This document shows, piece by piece, positions 4,511-26,613 of a stretch of 64,000 nucleotides of DNA. A program made the position numbers and the translations under genes. The stretch's first letter is position 1. Each line of letters opens with the position of its first letter. The notes under the pieces were generated by a model that worked only from the letters and a program-made list of their open reading frames with translations, made no database searches and was not told where the DNA came from. The stretch comes from Escherichia phage DCP80, in sequence record PQ671644.1; one strand, 5' to 3'.

Positions 4511-4520
4511 NNNNNNNNNN
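4511..4520. other. N-run (scaffold junction)
   Basis: 10 n; flanking genes (34 fragment vs unrelated minus-strand gene) are not adjacent in T4. Confidence 0.95.
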
Positions 4521-4632
4521 TTAGAAACACGTACAATATCACCAGCTTCAACTTTCATAATTTTCTCTCTTGGTTAATAAGTTTATTCTCCAGCAGGGTC
4601 ATTATACTCTGACCCCAAGAGTTTGTACACAC

Positions 4633-5388
4633 TTAATTAAAAATTTCAACAACCATGGAACGTGGGACGACAGTAAATTCACCAGCATGGACAACGTTCA
4701 GGAGTTCAACACCATCTTCAATCCACTGATCTGTTACCCAACCACAAATGGAACTGTTAAATGGGCGTTTGATTTGAACTGGTTTACATAGCAAGTCAAT
4801 AGGGTCACCCAGTTCGCTAACTTCTTTCAGCAGTACAGATTCACGCGGATAAAGGATAGCTTCAAGATTGTCACCTGATTCATTAACCGCAGTAAATTCA
4901 AAGATGCTTTGGTGATTGTGGTACTTAACTGTTTTAACGGTAAATGGAGCAAATCCAAAAATACCTTTTAGTACACGCCAACCAGCATGCATTGCAACGG
5001 TCTTTCCAAACTGACTGGCATCTTCAATAAGCTGATAGGTTTTACCAACTTTGATAGGAGTTTCTTCAACTTCTTTGAAGAGTTCAATCTCAGCTTCATA
5101 AACCATAATTTTTTCTACTTCATTTGTATCAAGGCGACGTGCATGTAGAATATATGCTTTATCAAACCAGTTACTTTTTACAAAAGTTTCAACAATAAAT
5201 TCACCTTCGCCTAAAGCATCAGTCAGAGTATTATACCCAGAAACCATAGCTGCGTTTTGAATAATAGGTTCAATCAGTTGATAAGTTTTGTTAATTTCAA
5301 TAGTCATATTTTGTTTCTCAAGTTTTAATGGTTTAATTGGACGAACATACATACTTACAATATCAAAGTCAATAAATTCTGGTTTCAT
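4633..5388 (-). CDS. hypothetical protein (251 aa) with internal duplication
   Basis: Long ORF downstream of dexA in the early operon; contains repeated KTYQLIE segments; no family recognised. Confidence 0.5.
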   Translation of the reverse strand: MKPEFIDFDIVSMYVRPIKPLKLEKQNMTIEINKTYQLIEPIIQNAAMVSGYNTLTDALGEGEFIVETFVKSNWFDKAYILHARRLDTNEVEKIMVYEAEIELFKEVEETPIKVGKTYQLIEDASQFGKTVAMHAGWRVLKGIFGFAPFTVKTVKYHNHQSIFEFTAVNESGDNLEAILYPRESVLLKEVSELGDPIDLLCKPVQIKRPFNSSICGWVTDQWIEDGVELLNVVHAGEFTVVPRSMVVEIFN

Positions 5389-5645
5389 TATGCAACCTTA
5401 TTGAACATCGCCAGTTGATTAGGTTGTACAACCATAATTTCACGACGACCTTTTGCGTTTGACACGTTTAGGTAGATGCCTTTGTTCATGTCTGTTTCTT
5501 TATCATATACCGCAATTTTATTGACAGTAAAGATTTTACCACGAATATTTGCAAATGCACATTCAAACGCTTTAGTCAGACCTGCTTCAGCAGCTTGAAG
5601 AGCAGACATTTCATATTGTTGGCCAATTTCAAAAGAAGTAATCAT
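5388..5645 (-). CDS. hypothetical protein (85 aa)
   Basis: ATG at 5645 with GAGGA RBS inside the conserved leader; track ORF starts further upstream at 5693 within the promoter region. Confidence 0.5.
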   Translation of the reverse strand: MITSFEIGQQYEMSALQAAEAGLTKAFECAFANIRGKIFTVNKIAVYDKETDMNKGIYLNVSNAKGRREIMVVQPNQLAMFNKVA

Positions 5646-5676
5646 TTTGTTGTCCTCATCAGTAGTTGATGAGATG

Positions 5677-5706
5677 ATTATGTCTCTTTCCATTGACCTT
5701 GTACAC
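5677..5706 (-). promoter_or_regulatory. T4-type early promoter
   Basis: Minus strand GTGTAC-18nt-CATAAT followed by CATCAACTACTGATGAGGA. Confidence 0.5.
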
Positions 5707-5712
5707 TACTTT

Positions 5713-6396
5713 TTATCGTTTTTTCGGTAAAGATAACGGGTCTGCATCTTCTTCGGAAGGAACTTCATCCAAACCAAGGGCATAGCGCTGGGCATACTTC
5801 AACATCAAAATATCTTTCGCGCAGTCATGTACCGAATCGTGCGCCACGAATCCATCTAAAGCCCCTTTCGGTAATGGGGTTTCACACATCTTACGGACGA
5901 GTGACAAGGCTTCGATTGCCGTCCTGATATCACGCTGGTTCCAGAATACAACCGGCTCCAGGCCATAAGTGTTCAATTCACGCTCAGGAATCCCCTCATT
6001 GCGCTGTAGGTCGCGGATAAGGTCGACAAACAACGGGAAGTCAAAAGACATTCCACGGCACCACATAAGGCTTTCGTATTTGTTAATTCCATTACCGTTC
6101 AGATAGTCAATCGCCTGTTGGATACCGGTCAGAGTATCAACATCATGTGCAGAAGGAGCCAGGTTAACACGAGCTTCTGCTGATTGCTTTTTCCACCAAC
6201 CCATGGTTGTTGTGTCGAACAGACGCTTACCTTTTTGATATTCGAGACTGAACTTAATACGTTTGCCGCGATTAACCAGGGTTTCGAATGATTCCACAAT
6301 AGCAGGGTCAGATTCGAATGTAATCAGAGCCAGGTCAATAACGGCTCCCTTCGAGCCGTTTCCCAGAGTTTCAAAGTCAATAATAGCATCAATCAT
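5713..6396 (-). CDS. dexA: exonuclease A (DexA, DEDD-type)
   Basis: 227 aa (same length as T4 DexA); IIDFETLG motif near N-terminus; position immediately downstream of dda. Confidence 0.75.
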   Translation of the reverse strand: MIDAIIDFETLGNGSKGAVIDLALITFESDPAIVESFETLVNRGKRIKFSLEYQKGKRLFDTTTMGWWKKQSAEARVNLAPSAHDVDTLTGIQQAIDYLNGNGINKYESLMWCRGMSFDFPLFVDLIRDLQRNEGIPERELNTYGLEPVVFWNQRDIRTAIEALSLVRKMCETPLPKGALDGFVAHDSVHDCAKDILMLKYAQRYALGLDEVPSEEDADPLSLPKKR

Positions 6397-6628
6397 CGCA
6401 CATCTCTTTTAATTTCTGAATTTCGCCAGCAACATAGTCGGAGATAAAAATCCCTGGCTCTTCATTGTTAAAATATTCAATCGCGGCCATACGTTTCCGA
6501 ATAAGGTCCAGTTCCAGTAAAACGTAATTGCCCTGTTGGACGATAGTCGGATTATCTTCGAAAAATTCAACGGCATCTTTAATACCGTAGATGAGATTAT
6601 CTAAATCTTCTTTATGTACCTTATACAT
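6389..6628 (-). CDS. hypothetical protein (79 aa; dexA.2 position)
   Basis: Start chosen at the Met shared with the duplicate copy (52561..52800); 8-nt overlap with dda. Confidence 0.5.
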   Translation of the reverse strand: MYKVHKEDLDNLIYGIKDAVEFFEDNPTIVQQGNYVLLELDLIRKRMAAIEYFNNEEPGIFISDYVAGEIQKLKEMCDD

Positions 6629-7949
6629 AATATGCGTCGTACCTCGCTCGTGTGATTCCAACATAAGCCAACTGGCTCGCTAATGAAGCTTCGGCCATAT
6701 GGATGCATGGAGTATAGATGAATGCTTTGTCCACTGAAACGCCCTGGGCCTTGTGGATTGTACTAACCGGAAGAGCACGAACTTTCAAGAAGGTCCGGCG
6801 AGCTTTCCAGAAGTCTTTCCACTCTGGACGTTTACCAGCGGCTTTCATCTGTTTGTATGTGTCAGCAACTTTAGCCAGATATGCCTGGAATTTCGGTTGC
6901 TGGTCTTCTGGTAAAACTTTGATGCGGTCAACCTGATATTCTTCATCTTCATCAATTGACTCAACTTCCAGGTCCCAGTAATTAATCACTAACTGGTGCG
7001 ATTCACCTTTACAACGGAGAATTGTGGAAGTGTATTTGCAATCCTTGATGCGAACCAACTGACCATTATTAAAAATGGTTTCGCTGAATTTCTTGCCTTC
7101 AAATTCCAGCTCTTTCATGTGTGGCTCTTGCATAACCAGGACTTCATACGGTAAAAATGCTTTATCCGTTTCATAGAGCTTGCGACGAATAATATTGTTC
7201 AGTTTTTCAACTGATTTATTCGTGTACGCATACATCCTGTTTTCCATCAACATATCAGCATCTTTTACAATACCGAAATAGTTTACCATGAAATCCTTTA
7301 AAGCGGTTTGTGAGGTAAAACCCTGCACACCATGACCATCATACATACAGTCGCGGAACCAACCACCATTGCGAATTTCTGTCGCCACTTCAATGATAGG
7401 AGCATTGCTTCGCATGACTTCAGTCAGATGAATCTGTTTGAACTTAGGATGCGTAAAGAATGGGCTTATCTTTTGTTGTGTGCTTCCTGGGTCAACTGGC
7501 TGCAGCTGGTGCATATCACCAATCCCAAGAATAGTACACCATTCAGGAACAGAGTTAAGAATAATCTTAAACAGAGCCCCGTCATACATACTTGCTTCAT
7601 CACAAACCAGAACATTGCATTTTGACATGTCAGGCATTTCGCGCTGTTCAAAAACGTTTTGGTCTTCATATGTGGTCGGGTTAATCTTCAGAATACTATG
7701 GATTGTATTCGCCGTTTGACCAGACAATTTAGATAAAACTTTTTTCGCCTGGTGAGTTGGTGCAGCAAGTACAATTCCCATAACTCCATTACGCACTAAA
7801 TGGTCAATGACAAATTTTGTCAGAGTAGTTTTACCTGTACCAGCTGGACCATTCAGAGTGATACATTCCCCTGAACGTCGCTGAATAGCTTCAGTGATAT
7901 AATCAAAAGCTTCTTTTTGTCCTGTGTTCAAGTCTTCAAATTTAATCAT
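6621..7949 (-). CDS. dda: Dda DNA helicase (SF1)
   Basis: 442 aa; matches T4 Dda (GPAGTGKTTLTKF, LAAPTH.AKK.LSKLSG, CDE.SMYD, PFFTH, FNNGQLVRI, TPCIH, YVG.TR.RYD). Confidence 0.92.
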   Translation of the reverse strand: MIKFEDLNTGQKEAFDYITEAIQRRSGECITLNGPAGTGKTTLTKFVIDHLVRNGVMGIVLAAPTHQAKKVLSKLSGQTANTIHSILKINPTTYEDQNVFEQREMPDMSKCNVLVCDEASMYDGALFKIILNSVPEWCTILGIGDMHQLQPVDPGSTQQKISPFFTHPKFKQIHLTEVMRSNAPIIEVATEIRNGGWFRDCMYDGHGVQGFTSQTALKDFMVNYFGIVKDADMLMENRMYAYTNKSVEKLNNIIRRKLYETDKAFLPYEVLVMQEPHMKELEFEGKKFSETIFNNGQLVRIKDCKYTSTILRCKGESHQLVINYWDLEVESIDEDEEYQVDRIKVLPEDQQPKFQAYLAKVADTYKQMKAAGKRPEWKDFWKARRTFLKVRALPVSTIHKAQGVSVDKAFIYTPCIHMAEASLASQLAYVGITRARYDAYYV

Positions 7950-8245
7950 GCCAATTTTACTCGCTTAACATATAAAGTATCTAAAACTAATTTCAATTCT
8001 CGTGCGTGTTCTTCAGTAGGAAAAACAGTTTTTGTTTCCCGCTTATCAAACCACCATTTTCTGGGAATATACCGTGTTTCAATACGTCCCATGCGTAAAT
8101 AGCGGTTTGTAGTATATGAATAGTTGGCAAGTTCATACTCTGCGCCCGGTTTTGTGGTGTATAAGGTAACCTTTCCATCATACTCCAATGGGCGTTCAAA
8201 ACCATCTTTATCTTTGTGGACCAGCACATATGCGTAGTACATCAC
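7946..8245 (-). CDS. hypothetical protein (99 aa; dda.1 position)
   Basis: ORF overlapping dda start by 4 nt; 93% identical to duplicate at 50944..51243. Confidence 0.5.
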   Translation of the reverse strand: MMYYAYVLVHKDKDGFERPLEYDGKVTLYTTKPGAEYELANYSYTTNRYLRMGRIETRYIPRKWWFDKRETKTVFPTEEHARELKLVLDTLYVKRVKLA

Positions 8246-8246
8246 A

Positions 8247-8990
8247 TTAACCTCTAATCAGTTTAAAAATTGACGCGTTCAAAGGTAGACCTTTTTTCAG
8301 TTTAAGGCGGTCAATGAATGACAACTTATCTAAACGCTCCAGACCTTGAATAATTTTATCATACATATCGTAACGCGTTTCAGCGTCAGATGATTTCATT
8401 TTCAGACGCCAGTCAGGACCACCCATAACCATTTTCAGCCCGCGTTGACTAGTTCCGATGGAAGCCATTTGTCCATGGATACGAGCCTTGACTGCAATCA
8501 CAGAAGGGGTGGTATCTTTAGCGCCACTTTTATAAAGCTCTTTTAAATGTTTTTGACGCTTCTTGATTCCACGTTCGGTATCTTTAATATTTTTAACAAT
8601 TTTGCGAATTTTATAATAGTCAGCAGGAGTTACTTTAAAACTATTGGGCATCTTAGAACCGCCATTAATACGCACCGCCAAACGAGTCTGCGCACGTTTA
8701 AGTTCATCAAGAGATAAATCAGCACGTAAACCGTTGTACTTAGTTTTGACAGGGATAACATTGCCTTCAATATAACCTATATCATTGTTAAAGCGTTCAA
8801 AGGAAACTTTATCTTGAGTTGAATTTTCATCAAAACGTTCACCAGAATACGCACAGAATTCTTGTTTCAAAAGATTGGCGATATACTTACTAGACAGATT
8901 GAAATCCTTGTTACGACGTTTTGCAGACGTTTTGGTATGCTCGCGACGTTTGTAAACTTTCAATTCAAACTCTTCTTTTGACATATTCAT
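8247..8990 (-). CDS. hypothetical protein (247 aa) at the srd position
   Basis: ORF with own early promoter; conserved N-terminal block (AKRR.KDFNL, CAYSGE, ERFNNDIGYI.GNVIPV) and C-terminus shared with the diverged copy at 50196..50942. Confidence 0.55.
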   Translation of the reverse strand: MNMSKEEFELKVYKRREHTKTSAKRRNKDFNLSSKYIANLLKQEFCAYSGERFDENSTQDKVSFERFNNDIGYIEGNVIPVKTKYNGLRADLSLDELKRAQTRLAVRINGGSKMPNSFKVTPADYYKIRKIVKNIKDTERGIKKRQKHLKELYKSGAKDTTPSVIAVKARIHGQMASIGTSQRGLKMVMGGPDWRLKMKSSDAETRYDMYDKIIQGLERLDKLSFIDRLKLKKGLPLNASIFKLIRG

Positions 8991-9036
8991 GATATTTTTC
9001 TCATCTTACGGACGATTGAAAACTCAGTATGGATTC

Positions 9037-9065
9037 ATTATACACTATACATCTTTTATGTACAC
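9037..9065 (-). promoter_or_regulatory. T4-type early promoter
   Basis: Minus strand GTGTAC-17nt-TATAAT followed by GATTCATACTGAGTT leader. Confidence 0.5.
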
Positions 9066-9146
9066 TACTTTTTAGCCTTTAACGCTTTTATTTTTACTGT
9101 GTATAATGGTTCTAAGGTCTTTGGCCTTTTGTTAACCCAGAATACT

Positions 9147-9659
9147 TCAGTAAGAAAGAACGGAAAGATTCCATAATTTATAGTCTTCCCATCTATAAAT
9201 GCTCTCAATAGAGTCCACGCGTAGCGTAGTTCCCGCAGGGAACATCATCTCATCTTCATCATTTACTAATTGTAAGTTTGAAGAACGAGTTATTTCAGGA
9301 TATAGTCCGTTGAACTCTTCAGGAGGTGCCGCACAAATCATTTTAAAAATCGCTTCCTGATAATCAAATGCGAATGGTGCATCATTAATACAGAAAATAT
9401 TTTTGGTTCCATAGAAGCTAAAGGAAGCAAAGTTACGCGCAACACTGAAATCTTTGGAGAAACTCATTACACGGTCAAACTCAATCGTAGCACCAACACA
9501 TCCTACGGTTTCAAGATATGCCAAAGTTTTCTTAGAAATCCCGCGATATAACTTACCAGGCACAGCAGAAGTCAAATTCTTACGAATAATTTTGTTCAAA
9601 GTTTCCTGGATAGTGTCTGGCTTATTTTCCATGCACTGCCAGAGTGTACTCTGTTCCAA
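9147..9659 (-). CDS. ADP-ribosyltransferase-like protein (ModA/ModB-like, R-S-E class)
   Basis: 170 aa; candidate catalytic triad pattern: Arg in LYRGISKK, SFSKDFS (S-x-S), and EDE (ExE) near the C-terminus; position upstream of srd/dda as modA/modB in T4. Confidence 0.5.
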   Translation of the reverse strand: MEQSTLWQCMENKPDTIQETLNKIIRKNLTSAVPGKLYRGISKKTLAYLETVGCVGATIEFDRVMSFSKDFSVARNFASFSFYGTKNIFCINDAPFAFDYQEAIFKMICAAPPEEFNGLYPEITRSSNLQLVNDEDEMMFPAGTTLRVDSIESIYRWEDYKLWNLSVLSY

Positions 9660-9759
9660 CTCAGAGTAAATTTCATCAATTTCAATCTGGGTATTTTCGC
9701 GAAAATATTCACATTTAACTGCATTGATGTACTCTGCTAATTGGTGACTTGCGTACAGC

Positions 9760-9800
9760 NNNNNNNNNNNNNNNNNNNNNNNNNNNNNNNNNNNNNNNNN
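9760..9800. other. N-run (scaffold junction)
   Basis: 41 n. Confidence 0.95.
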
Positions 9801-9818
9801 TGGGTCAAAACAAACATA

Positions 9819-10178
9819 TTAACCTCGCTTCATGAAGGCATTAAAAATCTGGTCATCAATATCAGTAGGCGGTTCTTGAGCTTTGACCCAAGCCCCTTCC
9901 AGAATGTCATTTGCTTCAGTAGATATCATGACCCCAATTTCAGGGTTTCCGGTTATCCATACTGCACAATCGCGGACATTCTTTTTATCAAATGGATAAC
10001 CACGATTATCTTCACAAGGCCCATTCATTGTCATAAATGAACGAGCCTTTATGATAACATCATCTTTAACGATAATATAACCAATCGCCTGATTATAACG
10101 AGGCTCACGAAATTCATAGTGAGCATTACCATTATTATTGCTCACCAGTTCAAAATTCAGAAAATTATAATAACTCAT
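9819..10178 (-). CDS. hypothetical protein (119 aa)
   Basis: ORF ending ...DDQIFNAFMKRG; C-terminal 11 aa shared with the upstream neighbour. Confidence 0.5.
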   Translation of the reverse strand: MSYYNFLNFELVSNNNGNAHYEFREPRYNQAIGYIIVKDDVIIKARSFMTMNGPCEDNRGYPFDKKNVRDCAVWITGNPEIGVMISTEANDILEGAWVKAQEPPTDIDDQIFNAFMKRG

Positions 10179-10179
10179 A

Positions 10180-10620
10180 TTAATCTCGCTTCATGAAGGC
10201 ATTAAAAATTTGGTCGTCAACTGAATATACAGGGGTTTCCAGAAGTTTCAAAAGACTGTTTTTAATGTACTTACCCGGGATACCCATATTAACAATACTG
10301 TCATTCAATTCATTATCAGGGTTGATGTCTTTAAATTCAAACCCATCAAATTCAACCTTGTCAGGAATACCATCAGCGAAAAAATAAACCAATTGGTGCA
10401 TTGTATTGCGCGAAAATAATTTAGACTTGACCGCAATAAGTTCTTGCCAATGGTTTAATTCTTTGTTAAGAAGTTTATGAGCAAACGTAATTCTATTATC
10501 ACTATCAACAAGAAAATAACCCAGGTATTGAATGGGTTCGTCGCTCCAAAACATCCTGTATGCTTGTGCATTTTGATTTTTACAACGAAGTTTTTTGATA
10601 ACTAGAGTTCTGTTAATCAT
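10180..10620 (-). CDS. hypothetical protein (147 aa; 61.2 position)
   Basis: ATG at 10620 lies 1 nt after the sp stop (TAAAATG coupling); ends ...DDQIFNAFMKRD. Confidence 0.5.
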   Translation of the reverse strand: MINRTLVIKKLRCKNQNAQAYRMFWSDEPIQYLGYFLVDSDNRITFAHKLLNKELNHWQELIAVKSKLFSRNTMHQLVYFFADGIPDKVEFDGFEFKDINPDNELNDSIVNMGIPGKYIKNSLLKLLETPVYSVDDQIFNAFMKRD

Positions 10621-10621
10621 T

Positions 10622-10915
10622 TTATTCACCTGTAACCCATTGAACAATCTTGCTGTTGTCAAATGAAGCATCGCAATACAGAACATAGTTATACTGCATA
10701 ACATCACCAGAAGTCAATTGGTCAGATACTTCTTTAACCATATCAGGACGGTCACGTTTAGTAATATTCATGATGTCAGCATAAATCTGATGTTCAACAT
10801 CAGCCTGGTCAGCAGTCATGGACCACTCGCAAAGGTCTTTATCAAGTCCAGCAGTAACTGGAGCTGTGCCACATGATGCTACGGTAAGAATTGCTGCGAT
10901 TAATAACTTTTTCAT
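10622..10915 (-). CDS. sp: spackle periplasmic protein (Sp)
   Basis: 97 aa (as T4 Sp) with signal peptide MKKLLIAAILTVASC and DKDLCEWSMTADQ, DIMNI.KRDRP, VMQYNYVLYCD motifs. Confidence 0.85.
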   Translation of the reverse strand: MKKLLIAAILTVASCGTAPVTAGLDKDLCEWSMTADQADVEHQIYADIMNITKRDRPDMVKEVSDQLTSGDVMQYNYVLYCDASFDNSKIVQWVTGE

Positions 10916-10943
10916 TTCAATCTCCTCAGTAGTTGATAGGGAT

Positions 10944-10973
10944 AATATACTGCATTATCCCTATGTTGTACAC
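10944..10973 (-). promoter_or_regulatory. T4-type early promoter
   Basis: Minus strand GTGTAC-18nt-GATAAT, then CTATCAACTACTGAGGAG leader. Confidence 0.45.
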
Positions 10974-11177
10974 TTATTTTTCGTTAGAACGATAATCATA
11001 TTCAAAAACTTTATTGTCATTAACAAAGGCTTTAACCAGTGCATTATTCACTTCTGCATACTGCACTGTAATCCATTCAATCATATTTTTGTCACTGACA
11101 TCTAGCGCGGTTTCTTTGGTAAACATATTACCATTTTCAAACCAACCAATAAACACTACGTTCTCTAATTTATACAT
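10974..11177 (-). CDS. dmd: Dmd (discriminator of mRNA degradation; antitoxin of RnlA/LsoA)
   Basis: 67 aa; matches T4 Dmd (VVFMGWF.N..MFTKE, QYAEVN.ALVKAF.DD.KV). Confidence 0.8.
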   Translation of the reverse strand: MYKLENVVFIGWFENGNMFTKETALDVSDKNMIEWITVQYAEVNNALVKAFVNDNKVFEYDYRSNEK

Positions 11178-11495
11178 TTAGATTTCCTCACAAAACGCCC
11201 AGGCGGCGTGATAAACTGTTGCACCTTTAGTGTCATTTAAACAAACCACGTCAACAGGTGCAATCACACGATAAAGACGGGGTTCTCCTCCATATGAGCG
11301 AGCTGCTCTTCCTGCATAGATACGCGCCAAACCAATATCTTCAGTAAAAAACACACGCCCTAAATTTTTCTTACGCCCAACTTCTGACAGAACACCAGTT
11401 GCATCAGGAGGACAAAGCATATTTTGGATTCCAGCATTAGAGCTTGAGCCATGATAATAAACTTTGTATTCTGCCTTGCAATCAATGGTTTTCAT
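11178..11495 (-). CDS. hypothetical protein (105 aa) with H-G-S / Y / E pattern
   Basis: Stop abuts the dmd start (co-transcribed); GGAG RBS; contains VYYHGSSS, RVFFTED, RLYRV segments loosely reminiscent of H-Y-E-type NAD-binding folds (speculative). Confidence 0.5.
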   Translation of the reverse strand: MKTIDCKAEYKVYYHGSSSNAGIQNMLCPPDATGVLSEVGRKKNLGRVFFTEDIGLARIYAGRAARSYGGEPRLYRVIAPVDVVCLNDTKGATVYHAAWAFCEEI

Positions 11496-11530
11496 TTTAT
11501 TCTCCAGTAGTTGATAGGGTCATTATAACA

Positions 11531-11558
11531 TAAGAAAAAGGGGCTTACAGCCCCTTTG
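11531..11558 (-). terminator. hairpin terminator after the 100-aa gene
   Basis: GGGGC-TTACA-GCCCC hairpin followed by U-run on the minus strand. Confidence 0.5.
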
Positions 11559-11563
11559 TTCAC

Positions 11564-11866
11564 TTACGCCAACTCATAGTTGTGCATAGTCAGACAACGA
11601 ATTTTCCCAGTAGTTGGGTGCATAACAGTCACACTAATTGTGTAATCATCACACACGTTAACAAAAGGTTCGGCGATAACATATACTGCCCCACCTGCCA
11701 ACAGGTACTCACGAAGAGAGCTGCGAACAGATGAAGGTTGAACATCGCTTTTGAGCTTTATTAATTTACCAGTTTGAATGCCTGATGCGATAAGAGCAGC
11801 ACAGTTTTCATCACGGCGAGCGAACTGACCAAAATAGTAACGGTTCATATCGGTTTGATTAAACAT
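11564..11866 (-). CDS. hypothetical protein (100 aa)
   Basis: ORF with early promoter upstream and terminator downstream; no family recognised. Confidence 0.5.
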   Translation of the reverse strand: MFNQTDMNRYYFGQFARRDENCAALIASGIQTGKLIKLKSDVQPSSVRSSLREYLLAGGAVYVIAEPFVNVCDDYTISVTVMHPTTGKIRCLTMHNYELA

Positions 11867-11915
11867 ATGGTTTTCCTTTTAACAGTTGGTTTATTGTGTA
11901 ACTCAGTATGGAATC

Positions 11916-11945
11916 ATTATGTCCTAAGACAAGGGGCTTGTACAC
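11916..11945 (-). promoter_or_regulatory. T4-type early promoter
   Basis: Minus strand GTGTAC-18nt-CATAAT then GATTCCATACTGAGTTAC leader. Confidence 0.5.
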
Positions 11946-12193
11946 TATTTTAATTCATTAATTAAATGAAAATCTTGTGCATTGAAAGTAATGAAAAAAT
12001 AATCATTCCCTTCAACTGAAGCATGACAGGCAACACTACACCAGCGCCTTGCTCTGTTCAAGGAGCAATCCAAAATTTTAAAAGGCTTCAGACCAACAAT
12101 GGCAGCTGTTCTTTTATTATGCTCACAAATATCAGCATACTTTTGGAGAGCTTCTTCAGATTTGAACTGGTAATGCACATTAACTAATAACAT
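11945..12193 (-). CDS. hypothetical protein (82 aa)
   Basis: ORF with GAGGA RBS and own early promoter between gene 41 and dmd. Confidence 0.5.
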   Translation of the reverse strand: MLLVNVHYQFKSEEALQKYADICEHNKRTAAIVGLKPFKILDCSLNRARRWCSVACHASVEGNDYFFITFNAQDFHLINELK

Positions 12194-12224
12194 TTTATTA
12201 TCCTCATCAGTAGTTGATGGGATA

Positions 12225-12254
12225 ATAGTACACCCTTTTTATGGTGATGTAAAC
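12225..12254 (-). promoter_or_regulatory. T4-type early promoter (GTTTAC / TACTAT)
   Basis: Minus strand GTTTAC-18nt-TACTAT then CATCAACTACTGATGAGGA leader. Confidence 0.4.
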
Positions 12255-12261
12255 CTCTAAA

Positions 12262-12286
12262 TGAAAAAGACCCGAAGGTCTTTAGA
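12262..12286 (-). terminator. terminator after gene 41
   Basis: AAGACC-CGAA-GGTCTT hairpin with U-run on the minus strand just past the gene 41 stop. Confidence 0.5.
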
Positions 12287-13721
12287 ATTTCATTTGAGCA
12301 GCAAGGTCGTCCAGGTCGCTCCTGTTGACCCTGGTTTGTCTATTCATTTCAGCCTGACGATTCATCTCACCGGTGGCTTCTTTAACCGTAGGGCCTTGTT
12401 TAGGAGCTGAATCATCATCAACCTCGTACCAGCGCTGATTACCTTTCTTAACACCCATCTTGAATTTATTATAGTAGTTCTTATCGCCATAACGAGACTT
12501 AAGCTGTTTGATTAACTGTAGTCCCATTTGAGCGAATTCTTCGGTCTCAACAACACCCAACATAAAGTCGGCCGTGTGAGCAATACCAAAGGATTCTGCG
12601 ATGTCAGCCATATCAATCTCAGCTGCAACGTTCGCACCCCTGGTTGTCTGCGCTGCAGTCCACAGGACTACATTTTTCTCAACAGCCAGACCACGAAGTT
12701 CTTCTGCAACCATCTTAATCAGGCCGTAACTGTTTTCGGTAAACGTTTTCAGTCTTGAGCTTGCACAGATTGCCAGGTAGTCAACAATAATCACATCCGG
12801 CACAAACCCTTGCTTCAGTTTGTATTCATTCAATAATGCACGGAAGGTATCTGCATGAGCGCCGCCAGTTGGATATTGTTTTATCTTCAGAGTCCCAAGA
12901 GTCCCGGAAGCACGCCACTTTTCCATCTTAGCTTTATATTCCGCCCATGATATATGACCTTCATCAATATCATCCAGAGATACATCCAGCAAGTTGGCAT
13001 CAATACGTTTGGCACATACTTCTTCAGCCATTTCCATGCTTATATAAAGAACATTATGACCAGTCTGAAGATAGTCAGCAGCTAACGAACAAAGTCCAAG
13101 AGATTTACCGACGTTTGTCCCGGCCAGTAAAACGTTCTCTGTACCGTACTCAACCCCACCCTTTGTGATTTTATTCAGGATGTTAATACGGAACGGAACC
13201 TTCTTCGATTTGTTCAGATAAGTCTGGAATCGAGCTTCGTAATCGTTTAACCAGTCATGGCCCAGAGCAGAGTCAAAACAGATAGACAATGCATCGCGCA
13301 TGATGTCGGGGATAGCACCAATATCCGGGATTCGTTTATCACGTTTATCTTTCGGAAGTTCGGCATTACTCTGGATTTCGATAATCCTGGATGTGGCATT
13401 GAACATCGCAGACTTCTGCACATACTTCTCGGTTTCTTTAACCAACCATTCCTGGTCTTCTGGAGTATCGGCCAGGACTCCTAAGAGTTTCTTTGTGCCT
13501 TCATATTCGACTTCAGAAAGGTCAGAACTGTCGAGCGCGATATCAAGTGCAGTCTTAGTTGGTACCGCTTGATATTCTTTTACGTGTTCGTTAATCGTAT
13601 TAAAAAGAGTCTTCGCGGGACCCTTTTCAAAATATGTGTTATTCAGATACGGCCAGACTTTAACAAAATATTCCTTGTTAAAGAGTAGCTGGGATAAAAT
13701 AGTTTCTACCACTTCCACCAC
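12282..13721 (-). CDS. 41: replicative DNA helicase gp41 (DnaB-like)
   Basis: 479 aa; matches T4 gp41 length and motifs (Walker A GTNVGKS, ISMEMAEE); uvsX-40-41 order. Confidence 0.92.
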   Translation of the reverse strand: MVEVVETILSQLLFNKEYFVKVWPYLNNTYFEKGPAKTLFNTINEHVKEYQAVPTKTALDIALDSSDLSEVEYEGTKKLLGVLADTPEDQEWLVKETEKYVQKSAMFNATSRIIEIQSNAELPKDKRDKRIPDIGAIPDIMRDALSICFDSALGHDWLNDYEARFQTYLNKSKKVPFRINILNKITKGGVEYGTENVLLAGTNVGKSLGLCSLAADYLQTGHNVLYISMEMAEEVCAKRIDANLLDVSLDDIDEGHISWAEYKAKMEKWRASGTLGTLKIKQYPTGGAHADTFRALLNEYKLKQGFVPDVIIVDYLAICASSRLKTFTENSYGLIKMVAEELRGLAVEKNVVLWTAAQTTRGANVAAEIDMADIAESFGIAHTADFMLGVVETEEFAQMGLQLIKQLKSRYGDKNYYNKFKMGVKKGNQRWYEVDDDSAPKQGPTVKEATGEMNRQAEMNRQTRVNRSDLDDLAAQMKF

Positions 13722-14050
13722 CTCTTTTTCATTTTAATTTTATCAATTTCATCTTGTATTTGCATTGTAACACACTTTTCTACATGCACAGCAAGCTCCG
13801 CTTTGCGGTCTTCAGAAGGGGTGCCGAAATCAACTGAAACTTTTCCAGATGGTTCAATTTTAATTCCGGTTACGTACACAATGTGACTGGACCCATCAGG
13901 GAGTGATAACAGAATTTCCTGTCGTACGGTTCCCATGGATTGCCGGATAATCTCCAAACTTTTTTCGTAGTAAGGTACAGAAGGAGCCTTAGCTCCCTCC
14001 GCATCTTTCTCGAAATTATCTAAATCAGATAAATCGATATCATTCATCAA
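13706..14050 (-). CDS. 40: gp40-position protein (head vertex assembly factor in T4)
   Basis: 114-aa ORF between uvsX and 41 as in T4; identification by position and size only. Confidence 0.55.
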   Translation of the reverse strand: MMNDIDLSDLDNFEKDAEGAKAPSVPYYEKSLEIIRQSMGTVRQEILLSLPDGSSHIVYVTGIKIEPSGKVSVDFGTPSEDRKAELAVHVEKCVTMQIQDEIDKIKMKKRWWKW

Positions 14051-15030
14051 GGTCTTCCATCATATCTAAATCGTTTTCGATATCTGCCGCAGACGGTTTT
14101 GTCTTACCTTCAGGAGCAGTGTATTTTTCAACCTTGGAGGCAATAAGCGCATCAACTTCGGCATCAACAACAGCATTGCTATCGATTGCACCCAGCTGGT
14201 AATGGCGTTTGATTGCGTCACGGAAAGGTTCGTGCTTGAACAACGGGCCCCAGAATTCGGTGCAGTTAGTATCTTTTGCGCGCCATGATTTTTCTTCGCG
14301 GACCATTTCACCGGTCTCAACATCAAGATATTCACGGTTATACCAACCAACTTTCGGTTTCACCACAAATCCGATTTCCATTGCCATATCAAGCAGGCCA
14401 GAATACGGGTCAATACCGCCATCGAATTTTACATCAATGAAGAATTTACTTTTCTCTTTGACCATACGAGATTTTTCGGCGTTCAGAACAAATTGGAAAC
14501 CTTCAAGTTCTTTACCAGTTTCTTTAATCTGGCGTTTGCCGATAATGAATACGGTGTCTGCGGAATACATAACACCTGTACCACCGGTCATAACGGTTTT
14601 GCTATACATCTCAATCGTCTCGATTGTATGGTTAACCGCGACACAAGGAATATCCTTGATGCTAAAATATGGAGTAACAATACGGAACAGAGATTTCAGG
14701 GATTTGGCACGAGTCATATCGCCAACAACTTTTTCGTTCATCGCATCTTCTGTTTCTTTTTTCGACGCCATGTTACCGATTGAGTCAATAAAGATAATGA
14801 CTTTTTCACCACGCTCAATTGCTTCAAGCTGGTTAACCATATCAACTTTCAATTGTTCAACCGACTGGATTGGTGTGTGGATAACACGTTCCGGGTCAAC
14901 TTTCATTGCACGAAGATAGGCTTCTGTGATACCAAATTCTGAATCATAGAACAAACAGATTGCATCGGGGTATTTGTTCATATATGCAGAGACCATCGTT
15001 AAACCCATATTGGATTTAAAGTGTTTTGAC
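14040..15030 (-). CDS. uvsX: UvsX recombinase (RecA-like), N-terminus lost in N-run
   Basis: RecA-fold core (FIDSIGNMASKKE) and C-terminal acidic tail; frame runs into the gap. Confidence 0.9.
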
Positions 15031-15080
15031 NNNNNNNNNNNNNNNNNNNNNNNNNNNNNNNNNNNNNNNNNNNNNNNNNN
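15031..15080. other. N-run (scaffold junction)
   Basis: 50 n; gene 62 and regA expected after 44 in T4 are absent, so the flanks are not contiguous. Confidence 0.95.
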
Positions 15081-15125
15081 ACGCAACCTCATGTTCGTTT
15101 AATTGAACGTCATCATCAAAGAGAC

Positions 15126-16085
15126 TTACAGCCATTTCATTTCCCCAGCCAGTTGAGCAAACAGATAAGTCAAGTGAACTTCGGTATTGGCCGCAATGCC
15201 ATGATACTGATTGTTCTCACCTACAATCTCATACATGCGGATGATACTTGCACCAGTCAGTTTGCCATACATTTCATCAGCCAGCTTTGCAATGAAGCTT
15301 GAATAATCATTTGCATGTTTAGGAGCCAGACCACGAAGAACTTTAAAGTTACGGTCTTTAAGGGCATCAATCACATCATCAATTGGCGTGCGATTGTTTG
15401 TCACGATACTCAGAATACCAGAATCGATAACACCCTTTGCAGAGTAACGGTCAAGCTCGTTAATTGTCTTACGCAGGTCCGGGAAGTTATGCTTAACCAG
15501 AGCAGCAACAACTTTCAGGTCTTCGATTTCAACGCCTTCGTTTTTACATACCGCAACTGCACGATGAATCATCTCTTTCATCATGGTAGTCTGGTCAGCC
15601 GGAGTTGCTTCACCGAACTTAATGACGCGACAACGAGACTGCAACGGAGTGATAATGCCATCGATATTGTTCGCGGTCATAATGATTGAACAGTTGCTCG
15701 AATAAGCTTCCATAAAGCTACGAAGATGCCGTTGTGATTCGGCCAGACCTGCACGGTCAAACTCATCGATAACGATTACCTTACGGCGACCTTCGATTGA
15801 TTTGGATGATGCAAAGCGAGTCAATTCATTACGCACAAAGTCAATTCGACAATCGGAGCCGTTAACAAACAGCATATCAGAATTCGTATCTGCGCACATA
15901 GCTTTTGCAACTGTTGTCTTACCAGTACCAGGGGAACTACTGACCAGAATCAAGTTAGGAATCAAACCTTTTTTAACAATCGCCTCTAATGTTTCTTTAT
16001 CATGAGCCGGGAGAATACACTCTGATAATGTACCTGGGCGGTATTTTTGTTCCCACATGAATTCTTTGTCATTAACCGTTAACAT
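15126..16085 (-). CDS. 44: clamp loader large subunit gp44 (AAA+)
   Basis: 319 aa (same as T4 gp44); N-terminus EQKYRP..L.ECILPA.DKET and Walker A SPGTGKTTVAKA. Confidence 0.92.
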   Translation of the reverse strand: MLTVNDKEFMWEQKYRPGTLSECILPAHDKETLEAIVKKGLIPNLILVSSSPGTGKTTVAKAMCADTNSDMLFVNGSDCRIDFVRNELTRFASSKSIEGRRKVIVIDEFDRAGLAESQRHLRSFMEAYSSNCSIIMTANNIDGIITPLQSRCRVIKFGEATPADQTTMMKEMIHRAVAVCKNEGVEIEDLKVVAALVKHNFPDLRKTINELDRYSAKGVIDSGILSIVTNNRTPIDDVIDALKDRNFKVLRGLAPKHANDYSSFIAKLADEMYGKLTGASIIRMYEIVGENNQYHGIAANTEVHLTYLFAQLAGEMKWL

Positions 16086-16119
16086 ATATTTTCCTCATAT
16101 TAGTTTCTACTTTGTACTC

Positions 16120-16137
16120 CATGGGGCCGAAGCCCCA
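16120..16137 (-). other. intercistronic C(UUCG)G RNA hairpin between genes 45 and 44
   Basis: GGGGC-UUCG-GCCCC on the minus strand; no following U-run. Confidence 0.5.
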
Positions 16138-16141
16138 TTTA

Positions 16142-16837
16142 TTAATCTTGGAATTCGTGGCTAGAGCCTTGTTCCATTGCAATCACATAGCTTGCTTGTG
16201 TGCCTTCAAACTTCGTAGCAAATTTATCATCTTTCGCCCAAAGCATAACACGGTAATCAGCCGGAATCATTTTCATGTTCAGTTTGTTAATGATAAATTT
16301 AAACGCTGCATCACCTTCGTAATCGCCACACACCAGGGAATACAATGGACGCGCCAATTCTTTATCTTCGAGCTGGTTATAACCATGGATAACAATCTTA
16401 CCGTCTTTGTTGGTGATTGCAAAAGTATCCAGAGACAAACCACCAGCCACACGCAGAAGCTGCTGCAGGTCACTGCCTTTCAGGTCGAAGATAACCTTAG
16501 CTACCGGGAAAGGAATCTTCTTAGCAGGGAACACGATAGTGCTCGGGTCAGCCGCAGGCCAGTGAATCGTTGAACGTTGGTCTTTGATAATGATATTTGA
16601 TGCGTCTTCAGCCAGAGATACTTCAGCTTGGTCAGTTACCAGGCCCAGGATACTTAAGAAGCCGTTCAGGTCATAAATCGCAGCTTCAAAGTCAATTGTA
16701 TCATTGATTTCGGATTCGCCATATGACGCTCCAGTTACAGAACGAGTCAGGATGGTATTACCCGGCTTAAGCATAATGCCAGAGTAAATGGAGGTGAAAT
16801 TTTTCAATACCGCGATTGTGTCCTTTGAGAATTTCAT
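16142..16837 (-). CDS. 45: sliding clamp gp45
   Basis: 231 aa; matches T4 gp45 nearly end to end (SGIMLK, IDF..AIYDLNGFL, WPAADPST, FINMKM.P..Y...LWAK, KFEG). Confidence 0.93.
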   Translation of the reverse strand: MKFSKDTIAVLKNFTSIYSGIMLKPGNTILTRSVTGASYGESEINDTIDFEAAIYDLNGFLSILGLVTDQAEVSLAEDASNIIIKDQRSTIHWPAADPSTIVFPAKKIPFPVAKVIFDLKGSDLQQLLRVAGGLSLDTFAITNKDGKIVIHGYNQLEDKELARPLYSLVCGDYEGDAAFKFIINKLNMKMIPADYRVMLWAKDDKFATKFEGTQASYVIAMEQGSSHEFQD

Positions 16838-16876
16838 GTAATTACCTTTTATTCAATATTCAGTTAATGAGAATTA

Positions 16877-16901
16877 ATTATACAACGTTTGTTAACAAGC
16901 A
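16877..16901 (-). promoter_or_regulatory. middle promoter (MotA box TGCTTGT + -10 TATAAT) for gene 45
   Basis: MotA-box-like TGCTTGT 12 nt upstream of TATAAT on the minus strand; T4 gene 45 is known to have a middle promoter. Confidence 0.5.
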
Positions 16902-16902
16902 G

Positions 16903-17310
16903 TTAAGCAACAACTACCATTTGTTTGCGGATAGCTTCCGGAAGAGATTCAATATACTCTGGAAGTTGCGCAGCAATAATAGAACCAGCTTGCACCAGAT
17001 GGTCGTCCGAGTTAACACAATAATCATCTTCAAGACGTTCGGAACCATCACGGTCGATAACCAGTTTAGCACCAGCGGCCAGTGAATCATTGTAGTGATT
17101 ACGCATCAGTTCAATCCACTTATCAGATACATCAGTATCAATCACACCGTACAGCATGAATTTAATTTCTTGTGGCAGAGACTGCAGACGGGTAGCAGAT
17201 GCTTCATCACATGCCAGGACCCAGGATTTGCGAACACGGTTTTGGTTATGTGGGTTAGCGTCGGTGCGGATGGTTTTAACTTGGATATCTTTAGCAGTTA
17301 CGTTGTTCAT
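16903..17310 (-). CDS. rpbA: RNA polymerase-binding protein RpbA-like (by position)
   Basis: ORF between 46-side genes and 45; start set to ATG 17310 (GAGAG RBS); track ORF starts at TTG 17334. Confidence 0.45.
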   Translation of the reverse strand: MNNVTAKDIQVKTIRTDANPHNQNRVRKSWVLACDEASATRLQSLPQEIKFMLYGVIDTDVSDKWIELMRNHYNDSLAAGAKLVIDRDGSERLEDDYCVNSDDHLVQAGSIIAAQLPEYIESLPEAIRKQMVVVA

Positions 17311-17334
17311 AATATTCTCTCTATTCATTATCAA

Positions 17335-17586
17335 TTAATCAAAGTATTCATATGCGAACCAGGCATTGTGTCTGTTCGCGATTATTTTAACATATTCTTC
17401 GCCGAAAGCGTTTTGTAAGTCACGTTCAGTAACAAGGTGTTCATCTTTCGAAAAGGTATTAACTAACACATACCGTTTAATTTCAGGGACAGCCAGTAAA
17501 TGCTGCCCGGTTAAGAAGTCAGCCATAATAGCCTCTATTATAACATCCTTGTTTAAAGCATTATTCCATAACAGTGAATCGACCAA
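17335..17586 (-). CDS. hypothetical protein (83 aa)
   Basis: ORF overlapping gene 46 3' end; small conserved-position ORF. Confidence 0.45.
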   Translation of the reverse strand: MVDSLLWNNALNKDVIIEAIMADFLTGQHLLAVPEIKRYVLVNTFSKDEHLVTERDLQNAFGEEYVKIIANRHNAWFAYEYFD

Positions 17587-19255: not shown

Positions 19256-19493
19256 CCTTGATACATGATTCAGCCATATGGATTAATGCCTCTGGGGTAT
19301 CATCTTCCATTACATTAAAGCTAAATTCTACGGCCCAATCGGTGACTACATAGACTTTGATAAGTTGACCAGTTTCCCGGTCAGTGATAGCTTCAAACCA
19401 ATACTTAATAGTATTCGGTTGATTATCGTCGTCAACCACATCACATTCGCGGATATGCTCAAGCCCCGCTTCATTAAAATCATAAAGTCTCAT
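19230..19493 (-). CDS. hypothetical protein (87 aa)
   Basis: ORF between 47 and 46, overlapping both ends. Confidence 0.45.
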   Translation of the reverse strand: MRLYDFNEAGLEHIRECDVVDDDNQPNTIKYWFEAITDRETGQLIKVYVVTDWAVEFSFNVMEDDTPEALIHMAESCIKDAYYDEDF

Positions 19494-20285
19494 GGTTGCA
19501 CCTCAAGATATAATTTGTTGGCCAATGCTTTGAGAGCTTTTGATTCTTTCTCATTGGCGTCAGGTAATGCATCGATATATTCTGCCATCATATCTGTTAA
19601 GCGTTTTATGTCTAACTCTTCATCAGAGTCTGACGTATCAACACTGTTATCAACCTTATTGACAACACGCAATTCGTGCACACGCTTTTCTAATTCAGAT
19701 TCGAACTTGGTCAGGTCTTTATCGACTTTTTCTACAATAACACGGACTGATAAGTCTTTGAAGTCGTCGTAGTTAATAGTTTCGTTTGGATAAAAAATCT
19801 TCCGATGCCAGGTGGTTTCATTCGGAATAAATTTCATCTCTTCGGTTTCTGTATCAAATTCCCAGAATCCGCGCGGGTCATTCTCATCACCTGCTGTTAA
19901 TGTCCATGGCGTTCCTATGTACTTAACGTTCGCAGCTTCTGAAATGGTATGGAAGTGCCCAGACCAAACTTGCTTGTACTTCTTAAGGAAATCAGGCTCA
20001 AGTCCGTGGGATTTCAATCCTTTATAGAAATAAAACCCGGTTAATTCCCAGTGACCGATGCAATATTCGGCACCAGAAGTTTTGATGTGTTGATGAATGT
20101 CAGTCGCGTTCTCGTCACACATCCATGGAATCATATCAATCTGACAACCGTCAAAATCAACAGTCGTTGGCTTATCGTAGATTTTAACATGGTCATACTT
20201 ATTCAGGAGTTCAGTGATAGCATTAGGATGAATCTTATTCTTCAGATTCATGTCATGGTTCCCGACTATCGTGTGCATAGTAATT
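19490..20285 (-). CDS. 47: recombination endonuclease subunit gp47 (Mre11/SbcD-like), N-terminal ~75 aa missing at N-run
   Basis: Matches T4 gp47 (HTIVGNHD, FDGC.ID.IPWMC, GHWEL.GFYFYKG, SGHFHT, GTPWTLTAGDENDPRGFW). Confidence 0.9.
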
Positions 20286-20300
20286 NNNNNNNNNNNNNNN
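20286..20300. other. N-run (scaffold junction)
   Basis: 15 n; gp47 N-terminus is replaced by an unrelated holin fragment after the gap. Confidence 0.95.
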
Positions 20301-20383
20301 TTCCCGGTCGCATTATCTTTAAAAATTCTATCAAGAAGTCCAAAAAGTAGGTCTGATAATGAAAATCCTACTTTTGGTTCCAT
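20301..20383 (-). CDS. t: holin t, N-terminal 27 codons (truncated by N-run)
   Basis: MEPKVGFSLSDLLFGLLDRIFKDNATG matches T4 holin N-terminus (..SFSPSDILFGVLDRLFKDNATG); AAGGAG RBS. Confidence 0.75.
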
Positions 20384-20402
20384 ACTTTTCTCCTTTAAAG
20401 AT

Positions 20403-20410
20403 ATTTATAA
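20403..20410 (-). promoter_or_regulatory. late promoter TATAAATA for gene t
   Basis: Exact TATAAATA on the minus strand 20 nt upstream of the t ATG. Confidence 0.6.
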
Positions 20411-20419
20411 TATGGGGTA

Positions 20420-21220: not shown

Positions 21221-21251
21221 AATAAATCCTTAGGGCCCGAAGGCCCTTTTC

Positions 21252-25004: not shown

Positions 25005-25040
25005 NNNNNNNNNNNNNNNNNNNNNNNNNNNNNNNNNNNN
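25005..25040. other. N-run (scaffold junction)
   Basis: 36 n. Confidence 0.95.
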
Positions 25041-25056
25041 GCGGAAAGGGGGTGTT

Positions 25057-25224: not shown

Positions 25225-25256
25225 TGGTCCTTCGGGGCCATTGAAATGAGGAAACT

Positions 25257-26591: not shown

Positions 26592-26613
26592 ACATCCTCC
26601 TTTCTTGTATTTA

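What the first reader, a model, noticed from the sequence alone, without database searches (positions are those of the whole stretch)
5388..9166. Two multi-kb regions present twice in opposite orientation at 97-99% identity: the scaffold mixes two related phage genomes
5388..9166 is the reverse complement of 50001..53696, and 25041..28576 is the reverse complement of 57141..60514, with scattered substitutions (Dda V/I; primase about 97%). Together with the two fiber cassettes and 14 N-runs joining non-adjacent genes, this indicates concatenated contigs from at least two closely related T-even phages rather than one collinear genome. Gene adjacency across N-runs should not be trusted.
Basis: seen in the sequence. 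Interest (0 to 1): 0.5.

Follow-up and report, generated by a model that had tools for sequence, protein, structure and literature searches.

The report
Two phage strains, contigs glued together
The "inverted duplications" are not a genome feature: the window is a string of separate assembly contigs from a mixture of at least two closely related T4-like E. coli/Shigella phages, so the same genes appear twice as alleles.

Summary
5493-9185 is the reverse complement of 50001-53696 (95.5% over 2.9 kb, then much lower across srd). 25229-28606 is the reverse complement of 57141-60514 (96.6%).

The window is not a scaffold. It holds at least 16 separate contigs in strictly descending length, each padded with N to a multiple of 60. 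All 14 N-runs fit that rule. One junction (33740|33741) has no N at all.

The two "second copies" are whole short contigs nested inside longer ones. All four of their ends are exactly 111 nt identical to the longer contig, and the two tail-fibre contigs share exactly their first 111 nt. That is the mark of alternative branches in a de Bruijn assembly graph.

The differences are natural alleles: 135 synonymous against 29 non-synonymous codons, every ORF intact, and Srd alleles only 49% identical. One copy is 100% identical to an independent metagenome contig on which the genes are collinear and single-copy. Complete Gaprivervirus genomes hold each region once.

This is an ordinary product of assembling mixed strains and then concatenating the contigs, not biology.

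The parts
4521..9759 (-). Contig 2 (5239 nt), haplotype A: motB.1, gp013, dexA (5716-6396), gp015, dda (6624-7949), dda.1, a divergent srd allele (8250-8990) and the start of modA. All genes are on the - strand.
   Evidence: Maps to SP18 6825-12071. tblastn of SP18 proteins. Best relatives are PSD2001 and P896 at 97.7%.
5493..9185 (.). The part of contig 2 that is matched, in reverse complement, by the whole of contig 12.
   Evidence: The terminal 111 nt at each end (5493-5603 and 9075-9185) are identical to 53586-53696 and 50001-50111, and the 112th base differs.
50001..53696 (+). Contig 12 (3696 nt), haplotype B of the same locus: an SP18-type srd allele (50196-50939), dda.1, dda (51240-52565), gp015, dexA (52793-53473) and part of gp013.
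   Evidence: Maps to SP18 11497-7802 at 96.7%. Best relative is phage 212 at 97.6%. 100% identical over all 3696 nt to L015, a contig from SRR20950710.
25041..29505 (+). Contig 6 (4465 nt), haplotype A: gp61.1, gp61 primase (25257-26282), gp56 dCTPase (26676-27191), soc (27517-27747), mrh.2, mrh.1, srh (28382-28573), mrh, modA.2 and the start of modB.
   Evidence: Maps to SP18 17251-12977. tblastn. Best relative is phage 212 at 98.4%.
25229..28606 (.). The part of contig 6 that is matched, in reverse complement, by the whole of contig 14.
   Evidence: 96.6% over 3378 nt. The terminal 111 nt (25229-25339 and 28496-28606) are identical to 60404-60514 and 57141-57251.
57141..60514 (-). Contig 14 (3374 nt), haplotype B of the primase-soc-srh locus.
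   Evidence: Maps to SP18 13739-17063. 99.95% identical to L015 over 2217 nt, on the same independent contig that carries the contig 12 sequence.
20301..25004 (-). Contig 5 (4704 nt): start of holin t, a gp38 adhesin of the T2/IME08 type (20420-21220), and gp37 cut off by the contig end.
   Evidence: Pfam PF05268 GP38 at 3.6e-67 plus PF21721. Relatives are fDHCT2, IME341 and IME08. Its first 111 nt are identical to those of contig 9.
37941..42023 (-). Contig 9 (4083 nt): the alternative fibre cassette, with start of holin t, a T4-type gp38 tail-fibre assembly protein (38064-38615), gp37 (38637-41810) and the end of gp36.
   Evidence: phrog_105 'tail fiber assembly' at 8e-44. 96.8% identical to phage 04086, with a T4-type layout. 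75.6% identical to contig 5 over 1.4 kb of gp37.
33740..33741 (.). Hidden contig junction with no N. Contig 7 (29541-33740, exactly 4200 nt, the nrdC.4-nrdC.9 region) abuts contig 8 (33741-37899, gp67 to gp24).
   Evidence: The SP18 mapping jumps from 44156 (- strand) to 102118 (+ strand) exactly at contig position 4200/4201. 4200 mod 60 = 0, so no padding was needed.
4511..63980 (.). The 14 N-runs: 4511-4520, 9760-9800, 15031-15080, 20286-20300, 25005-25040, 29506-29540, 37900-37940, 42024-42080, 46131-46160, 49973-50000, 53697-53720, 57105-57140, 60515-60560 and 63923-63980. They are padding to a 60-base boundary, not sized gaps.
   Evidence: The observed length equals (-length) mod 60 for all 14 complete contigs, counting the zero-length case. 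The first N-run follows a contig cut by the window start, so its rule cannot be checked, but it ends on the same 60-base boundary as the others.

Best explanation
The window is a slice of a multi-contig short-read assembly whose contigs were sorted by length, padded with N to full 60-base lines and concatenated. The sample held at least two co-occurring T-even phages of the SP18/VR20 type (Gaprivervirus-like, about 40% GC). They are about 95-97% identical in conserved genes, but carry different srd alleles and different tail-fibre tip modules.

Where the two genomes differ, the de Bruijn graph forked. The assembler emitted one path inside a longer contig and the other path as a separate short contig. 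That short contig stops exactly one k-mer overlap (111 nt) into the shared sequence on each side.

Contig strand is arbitrary, so two of the three allelic pairs happen to appear inverted and one (the fibres) appears direct. Nothing here is a duplication within a genome.

Shown by the tests: the concatenation rule, the nesting, the 111-nt ends, the allelic nature of the differences, single-copy status in relatives, and the independent existence of haplotype B.

Inferred: that the assembler used k = 111, and that exactly two genotypes account for everything.
For: Padding rule met 14 of 14, descending lengths, and a zero-N junction.

Neighbouring contigs are non-adjacent on SP18, with 8 in + and 7 in - orientation.

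Contigs 12 and 14 are nested whole inside contigs 2 and 6.

All five terminal identities are exactly 111 nt with a mismatch at base 112, while 0 of 551 internal identical runs is 111 nt long.

135 synonymous against 29 non-synonymous codon differences across nine genes. All ORFs keep their ATG and stop codons and have no internal stops.

The Srd alleles are 49% identical and both match the Srd family.

Complete genomes show one place per record for these queries.

On L015 (SRR20950710), contig 12 is 100% identical, contig 14 is 99.95% over 2217 nt, and contig 3 is 99.9% over 2119 nt. All three are collinear on one 12.8-kb contig.

Viral strain diversity is known to produce complex de Bruijn graphs and fragmented assemblies (PMC11443906).
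Against: No reads or coverage values are available, so relative abundance and the number of genotypes cannot be measured.

Identical runs of up to 269 nt lie inside the 'bubbles'. A pure k = 111 graph would have merged there, so the assembler must have phased across them with read pairs, and occasional haplotype switches inside contigs cannot be excluded.

The primase part of contig 14 is only 96.6% identical to L015, although the rest of contig 14 is 99.95% identical. Haplotype B is therefore not simply 'the L015 phage'.

The source record was not found in any searchable collection.
Confidence: 0.93

Rival explanations
1. A genuine pair of large, diverged inverted duplications within a single phage genome.
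For: Within the window the matches are long, inverted and diverged. On raw sequence alone that is how an old segmental duplication would look.
Against: Each second copy is a whole separate contig, so its orientation carries no meaning. Contig strands against SP18 are 8 + and 7 -.

Both ends of both copies stop after exactly 111 identical bases instead of running into distinct flanks.

More than 30 complete relatives hold each region once.

Haplotype B lies at the normal, allelic position between modA and motB.1 on an independent contig.

A third allelic pair, the fibre contigs, behaves the same way in direct orientation.
Confidence: 0.02
2. One phage genome only, with the second copies being assembly or sequencing-error artefacts such as error-rich reads or chimeric contigs.
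For: Short nested contigs are sometimes produced by systematic sequencing errors.
Against: The differences are 82% synonymous at the codon level and concentrated at third positions. Both versions keep every reading frame. Each version matches different published phages at 97-98%, and contig 12 is 100% identical to an independent sample. The srd and gp38 modules are different genes, not noisy copies.
Confidence: 0.01
3. The mixture arose not in one sample but in data handling: contigs from two separate phage assemblies or isolates were pooled into one file (a bin or a co-assembly) before concatenation.
For: The window itself shows post-assembly handling, namely sorting, padding and concatenation. 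The source could not be traced.
Against: The exact 111-nt identities at all five branch ends show that the two haplotypes were in the same assembly graph. Independently assembled genomes would give overlapping contigs with unrelated end points. A co-assembly of two read sets would still fit this pattern, and from the graph's point of view it is the same as the main explanation.
Confidence: 0.04

Closest known systems
Strain-variant branches ('bubbles') and redundant contigs in de Bruijn-graph assemblies of mixed viral populations
   Same: A short alternative contig nested inside a longer one. The ends are fixed at one k-mer overlap (111 nt) from the first and last variant. The assembly is fragmented into 3-5 kb pieces, and contig strand is arbitrary (background in PMC11443906).
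   Different: The branches here are kilobases long and cross internal identical runs of up to 269 nt, so the assembler did more than simple bubble calling. The assembler and its k value are inferred, not documented.
Gaprivervirus (Shigella phage SP18, Escherichia phage VR20) and close relatives PSD2001, P896 and phage 212 (Straboviridae, Tevenvirinae)
   Same: Every contig is collinear with SP18 within itself at 92-99% identity. Gene content is typical T-even: rIIA/B, dda, gp61, gp43-region genes, gp23 and gp34-38.
   Different: Neither haplotype is identical to a published genome; the best matches are 97.6-98.4%. Relative to SP18 there are local differences: segG is absent, there is a single soc gene, an extra 222-aa ORF lies between gp18 and gp19, and the fibre tips differ.
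Modular exchange of long-tail-fibre tips in T4-type phages (gp38 adhesin type against T4-type gp38 chaperone)
   Same: One contig carries a Pfam GP38 adhesin and the other a tail-fibre assembly gp38. Both sit at the same locus next to holin t. Trojet et al. 2011 (PMC3157838) describe the small gp38 adhesin as the predominant form in T4-type phages and as unrelated to T4's own version.
   Different: Here both types come from a single assembly and branch from an identical 111-nt stretch. Host-range differences were not tested.

Membership tests
Concatenated multi-FASTA (not a scaffold) | Spacer lengths are determined by the formatting rule rather than by gap estimates | tested here: met
   N-run length equals (-contig length) mod 60 for all 14 complete contigs, including a zero-length spacer after the 4200-nt contig.
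Concatenated multi-FASTA (not a scaffold) | Pieces are ordered by a bookkeeping criterion, not by genome position | tested here: met
   Lengths descend strictly: 5239, 5230, 5205, 4704, 4465, 4200, 4159, 4083, 4050, 3812, 3696, 3384, 3374, 3362. Map positions on SP18 are scattered and strands are mixed.
Allelic (strain-variant) contigs from one assembly graph | The alternative contig ends a fixed k-mer overlap into sequence shared with the other haplotype | tested here: met
   Five of five ends have exactly 111 identical bases and then a mismatch. 0 of 551 internal runs is 111 nt long.
Allelic (strain-variant) contigs from one assembly graph | Both versions occupy the same genomic position, meaning the same flanking genes, and the locus is single-copy in complete genomes | tested here: met
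   One place per record in complete genomes. Gene order is collinear on L005-L009 and L013-L015. Contigs 12 and 14 are collinear on L015.
Allelic (strain-variant) contigs from one assembly graph | Read coverage splits between the two branches and sums to the coverage of the shared flanks | not testable with these tools
   No reads or coverage values are available, and the source record was not found.
Genuine intragenomic inverted duplication | Each copy is joined to its own distinct flanking sequence within one molecule | tested here: not met
   The second copies have no flanks of their own. They end inside sequence identical to the first copy, and elsewhere they sit at the allelic position.
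Tevenvirinae, Gaprivervirus-like phage | High nucleotide identity and synteny with the genus type genomes | tested here: met
   92-99% identity to SP18 within contigs. The top database hits are SP18, VR20, PSD2001, P896 and phage 212. Whole-genome identity against the 70% genus and 95% species thresholds could not be computed from about 50 kb of fragments.

The most novel reading that the evidence does not exclude
The most novel reading not excluded is that the two haplotypes are a natural co-circulating pair in one habitat, caught exchanging modules. Their backbones are near-identical, with shared stretches of 111 nt or more next to each swap. They carry alternative Srd anti-sigma alleles (49% identical) and alternative receptor-binding tips (gp38 adhesin against T4-type gp38 chaperone). 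That would give a direct view of recombination boundaries between coexisting T-even phages. Haplotype B also recurs 100% identical in an independent run (SRR20950710), which hints at a widespread clone.
Probability: 0.35. Interest if true: 0.3.

Novelty: not a real feature. Interest (0 to 1): 0.1.

Why it matters
The value is practical. Any analysis that treats this window as one molecule will be wrong in several ways. It will infer false gene neighbourhoods across 15 junctions, one of which has no N. It will call chimeric ORFs that read through the padding, for example 21252-25241 and 19490-20383. It will report false 'inverted repeats' and an inflated gene copy number. Recognising the padding rule and the 111-nt overlaps lets the window be split cleanly into contigs, and three loci can then be assigned to two haplotypes. 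Biologically it documents ordinary strain co-occurrence and mosaicism in T-even phages.

Tried and rejected
(1) I searched for the source record with a 60-nt exact pattern from the distinctive srd allele of contig 2, in genome contigs, viral contigs and metagenome contigs. All three gave 0 hits. Exact-protein look-ups of both Dda alleles returned no contig of 5239 or 3696 nt, so the source is not in that collection either.

(2) I looked for suffix-to-prefix overlaps between contig ends that would allow the contigs to be rejoined. None of 15 nt or more was found. The only shared ends are the 111-nt prefixes of contigs 5 and 9.

(3) I tested a strict 'simple bubble at k = 111' model. It is rejected in its pure form, because 11 internal identical runs are 111 nt or longer. 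The assembler must have phased across them.

(4) I tested whether the drop in contig 14's identity to L015 at the primase gene is a haplotype switch to contig 6. It is not: L015's primase is 97.5% identical to contig 6 and 96.6% to contig 14, so it matches neither.

(5) I tried phasing all contigs into A and B by nearest published genome. This was abandoned because the relatives are mosaic. Contig 6 is closest to phage 212, while contig 2 is closest to PSD2001.

(6) I examined the short inter-contig repeats of 45-71 nt as possible mobile elements. They read as T4-type early promoter and leader sequences.
Full report
**1. The observation**

A gapped self-alignment of the window finds two long reverse-complement matches, both at BLAST E = 0.
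- 5493-8397 matches 53696-50792 at 95.5% over 2905 nt with no gaps. This match continues as 8696-9185 against 50487-50001 at 78.9%.
- 25229-28606 matches 60514-57141 at 96.6% over 3378 nt.

A full alignment gives the identity profile.
- Pair 1 is 88-100% per 100 nt up to about 8290. It falls to 31-60% across 8393-8956 and returns to 99-100% at the end.
- Pair 2 is 87-100% throughout, with only 4 gap columns.

The finding's boundaries (5388-9166 and 25041-28576) are therefore off by about 105/19 nt and 188/30 nt. The quoted 97-99% overstates the nucleotide identity. It does fit the proteins: Dda differs only by V222I, and primase by 9 of 342 residues.

The count of 14 N-runs is correct.

**2. 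What the window is**

The N-runs split the window into pieces. Every N-run length equals the number of bases needed to bring the preceding piece up to a multiple of 60.

One apparent piece, 29541-37899, maps to two unrelated parts of the reference. Positions 1-4200 map to SP18 48103-44156 on the minus strand, and positions 4201-8359 map to SP18 102118-106285 on the plus strand. Because 4200 is a multiple of 60, no padding was needed there. So 33740|33741 is a hidden junction with no N.

With that split, the pieces are in strictly descending length: 5239, 5230, 5205, 4704, 4465, 4200, 4159, 4083, 4050, 3812, 3696, 3384, 3374, 3362. The first piece is cut by the window start, and a sixteenth begins at 63981.

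This is a length-sorted multi-FASTA whose records were padded to full 60-base lines and joined. It is not a scaffold, and the Ns carry no linkage or gap-size information.

**3. The organism**

The contigs match T-even phages of the SP18/VR20 group (Straboviridae, Tevenvirinae, Gaprivervirus) and their close relatives PSD2001, P896 and phage 212, at 95-98% (taxonomy line).

I fetched the complete SP18 genome and mapped all the contigs onto it.
- Each contig is internally collinear with SP18.
- Neighbouring contigs in the window come from scattered positions: 147-152 kb, 7-12 kb, 18-23 kb, 28-33 kb, 158-161 kb, 13-17 kb, 44-48 kb, 102-106 kb and so on.
- Eight contigs are in plus orientation and seven in minus.

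The 'opposite orientation' of the two pairs is therefore only arbitrary contig strand. The third redundant pair, the fibre contigs, happens to be in the same orientation.

**4. The nature of the second copies**

Contig 12 (50001-53696) lies wholly within the span of contig 2 (4521-9759). Contig 14 (57141-60514) lies wholly within contig 6 (25041-29505).

At all four ends of the two short contigs, the sequence is identical to the long contig for exactly 111 nt, and the 112th base differs. Contigs 5 and 9 also share exactly their first 111 nt, inside the holin gene, and then diverge. None of the 551 identical runs inside the two alignments is 111 nt long, so five out of five cannot be coincidence.

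This is the overlap that a de Bruijn-graph assembler leaves where an alternative path rejoins shared sequence. I infer k of about 111.

One caveat applies. Eleven internal identical runs are 111 nt or longer, the longest being 269 nt. The assembler must therefore have carried phase across them with reads or read pairs, and phase errors inside contigs cannot be ruled out in principle. Against that, contig 12 is 100% identical over its whole length to an independent contig (section 6).

**5. The differences are natural alleles**

All SP18 proteins of these regions are found full-length in both copies. I compared nine genes codon by codon: dexA, gp015, dda, dda.1, srh, mrh.2, soc, gp56 and gp61.
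- 135 codon differences are synonymous and 29 are non-synonymous.
- Most nucleotide changes fall at third codon positions.
- Every ORF keeps its ATG and stop codon, and none has an internal stop.

The strongly divergent stretch of pair 1 is the srd gene. The contig 2 allele is 49% identical in protein to the contig 12 allele. Both match the PHROG Srd anti-sigma family strongly, at 2e-89 and 1e-98. This is an allelic replacement by recombination, not decay.

**6. The locus is single-copy elsewhere, and haplotype B exists independently**

Complete genomes show one place per record for contig 12, contig 6 and contig 14.

Exact look-ups of the two Dda alleles return many contigs from isolates and metagenomes. 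In all of the long ones, the order primase - dCTPase - soc - mrh - modB - modA - srd - dda.1 - dda - dexA - motB.1 is collinear and single-copy.

On L015, a 12.8-kb contig from run SRR20950710, three of the window's contigs lie collinear on one strand:
- contig 12 is 100% identical over all 3696 nt;
- contig 14 is 99.95% identical over 2217 nt;
- contig 3 is 99.9% identical over 2119 nt.

So the 'second copy' sequences belong to a real phage genotype, in which they occupy the ordinary allelic position.

**7. The fibre cassettes**

Contig 5 encodes a gp38 adhesin (Pfam PF05268 at 3.6e-67, plus PF21721) next to a gp37 of the IME08/IME341 type.

Contig 9 encodes a 183-aa gp38 that matches tail-fibre assembly proteins (phrog_105 at 8e-44), next to a T4-type gp37. 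It is 96.8% identical to phage 04086.

These are the two known architectures of the T-even fibre tip (PMC3157838). The two genotypes therefore probably differ in receptor recognition. That is inferred and was not tested.

**8. Verdict**

The redundancy reflects at least two closely related phages assembled together, and adjacency across junctions must not be trusted. Three corrections apply:
- there are 15 junctions in the window, not 14;
- the N-runs are formatting padding;
- nucleotide identity is 95-97%, with one replaced gene.

A genuine inverted duplication, or an origin in sequencing error, is effectively excluded. Whether the mixture arose in one sample or in a co-assembly cannot be told without the reads. 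The source record was not found.

This is an ordinary assembly and data-handling artefact laid over ordinary T-even mosaicism, so interest is low.

Noticed in passing
window 33740-33741: A contig junction with no N-run. A contig of exactly 4200 nt (the nrdC region, minus strand on SP18) abuts the gp67-gp24 contig directly. Anyone who splits the window on Ns would keep a chimeric 8359-nt piece.
   Followed up: yes
window 8250-8990 (-) and 50196-50939 (+): The two haplotypes carry Srd anti-sigma alleles that are only 49% identical in protein, while the flanking genes dda.1 and modA are near-identical. This is a sharply bounded allelic replacement. Both alleles also give weaker matches to HNH/endonuclease PHROGs.
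   Followed up: partly
window 29781-29851 (+), 37605-37675 (-), 11885-11951 (-): Three copies of a roughly 70-nt sequence at 83-87% identity, each upstream of an ATG in a different contig. It reads GTTTACA, about 17 nt, CATAAT, then a conserved leader GATTCCATACTGAGTTAC. It looks like a T4-type early promoter with a shared 5' leader, and a terminator-like hairpin sits just upstream at 29760-29779.
   Followed up: partly
window 56210-56878 (+): A 222-aa ORF between gp18 and gp19 that is absent from SP18, which has no match to contig positions 2470-3167. It matches phrog_5104 (unknown function) at 6e-81, and has a sub-threshold Pfam DUF4379 treble-clef zinc-finger hit. It may be a mobile or homing-endonuclease-like insertion.
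   Followed up: partly
window 1275-1286 (contig 1): Relative to SP18, about 620 nt that hold the segG homing endonuclease (SP18 148519-149157) are missing between gp32 and gp59. This is a typical presence/absence polymorphism of T-even homing endonucleases.
   Followed up: no
window 19490-20383, 21252-25241, 41819-42094 and others: Mechanical ORF calls read straight through the N padding and fuse unrelated contigs. An example is the '1329-aa' ORF 21252-25241, which is gp37 cut off at 25004 plus padding plus contig 6. These are artefacts of the concatenation.
   Followed up: yes
L015 (SRR20950710 contig 1140) against window 50001-53696, 57141-59357 and 9801-11919: An independent public run holds a phage segment that is 99.9-100% identical to three of the window's contigs, but it differs in the primase gene (96.6-97.5%). 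It is either a closely related clone or comes from the same study as the window's source.
   Followed up: partly
window 9815-9859 and 10176-10220: A 45-nt direct repeat at 93% identity, 361 nt apart within contig 3, in the region of small ORFs next to gp61.1. Its meaning is unknown. It may mark paralogous small genes.
   Followed up: no
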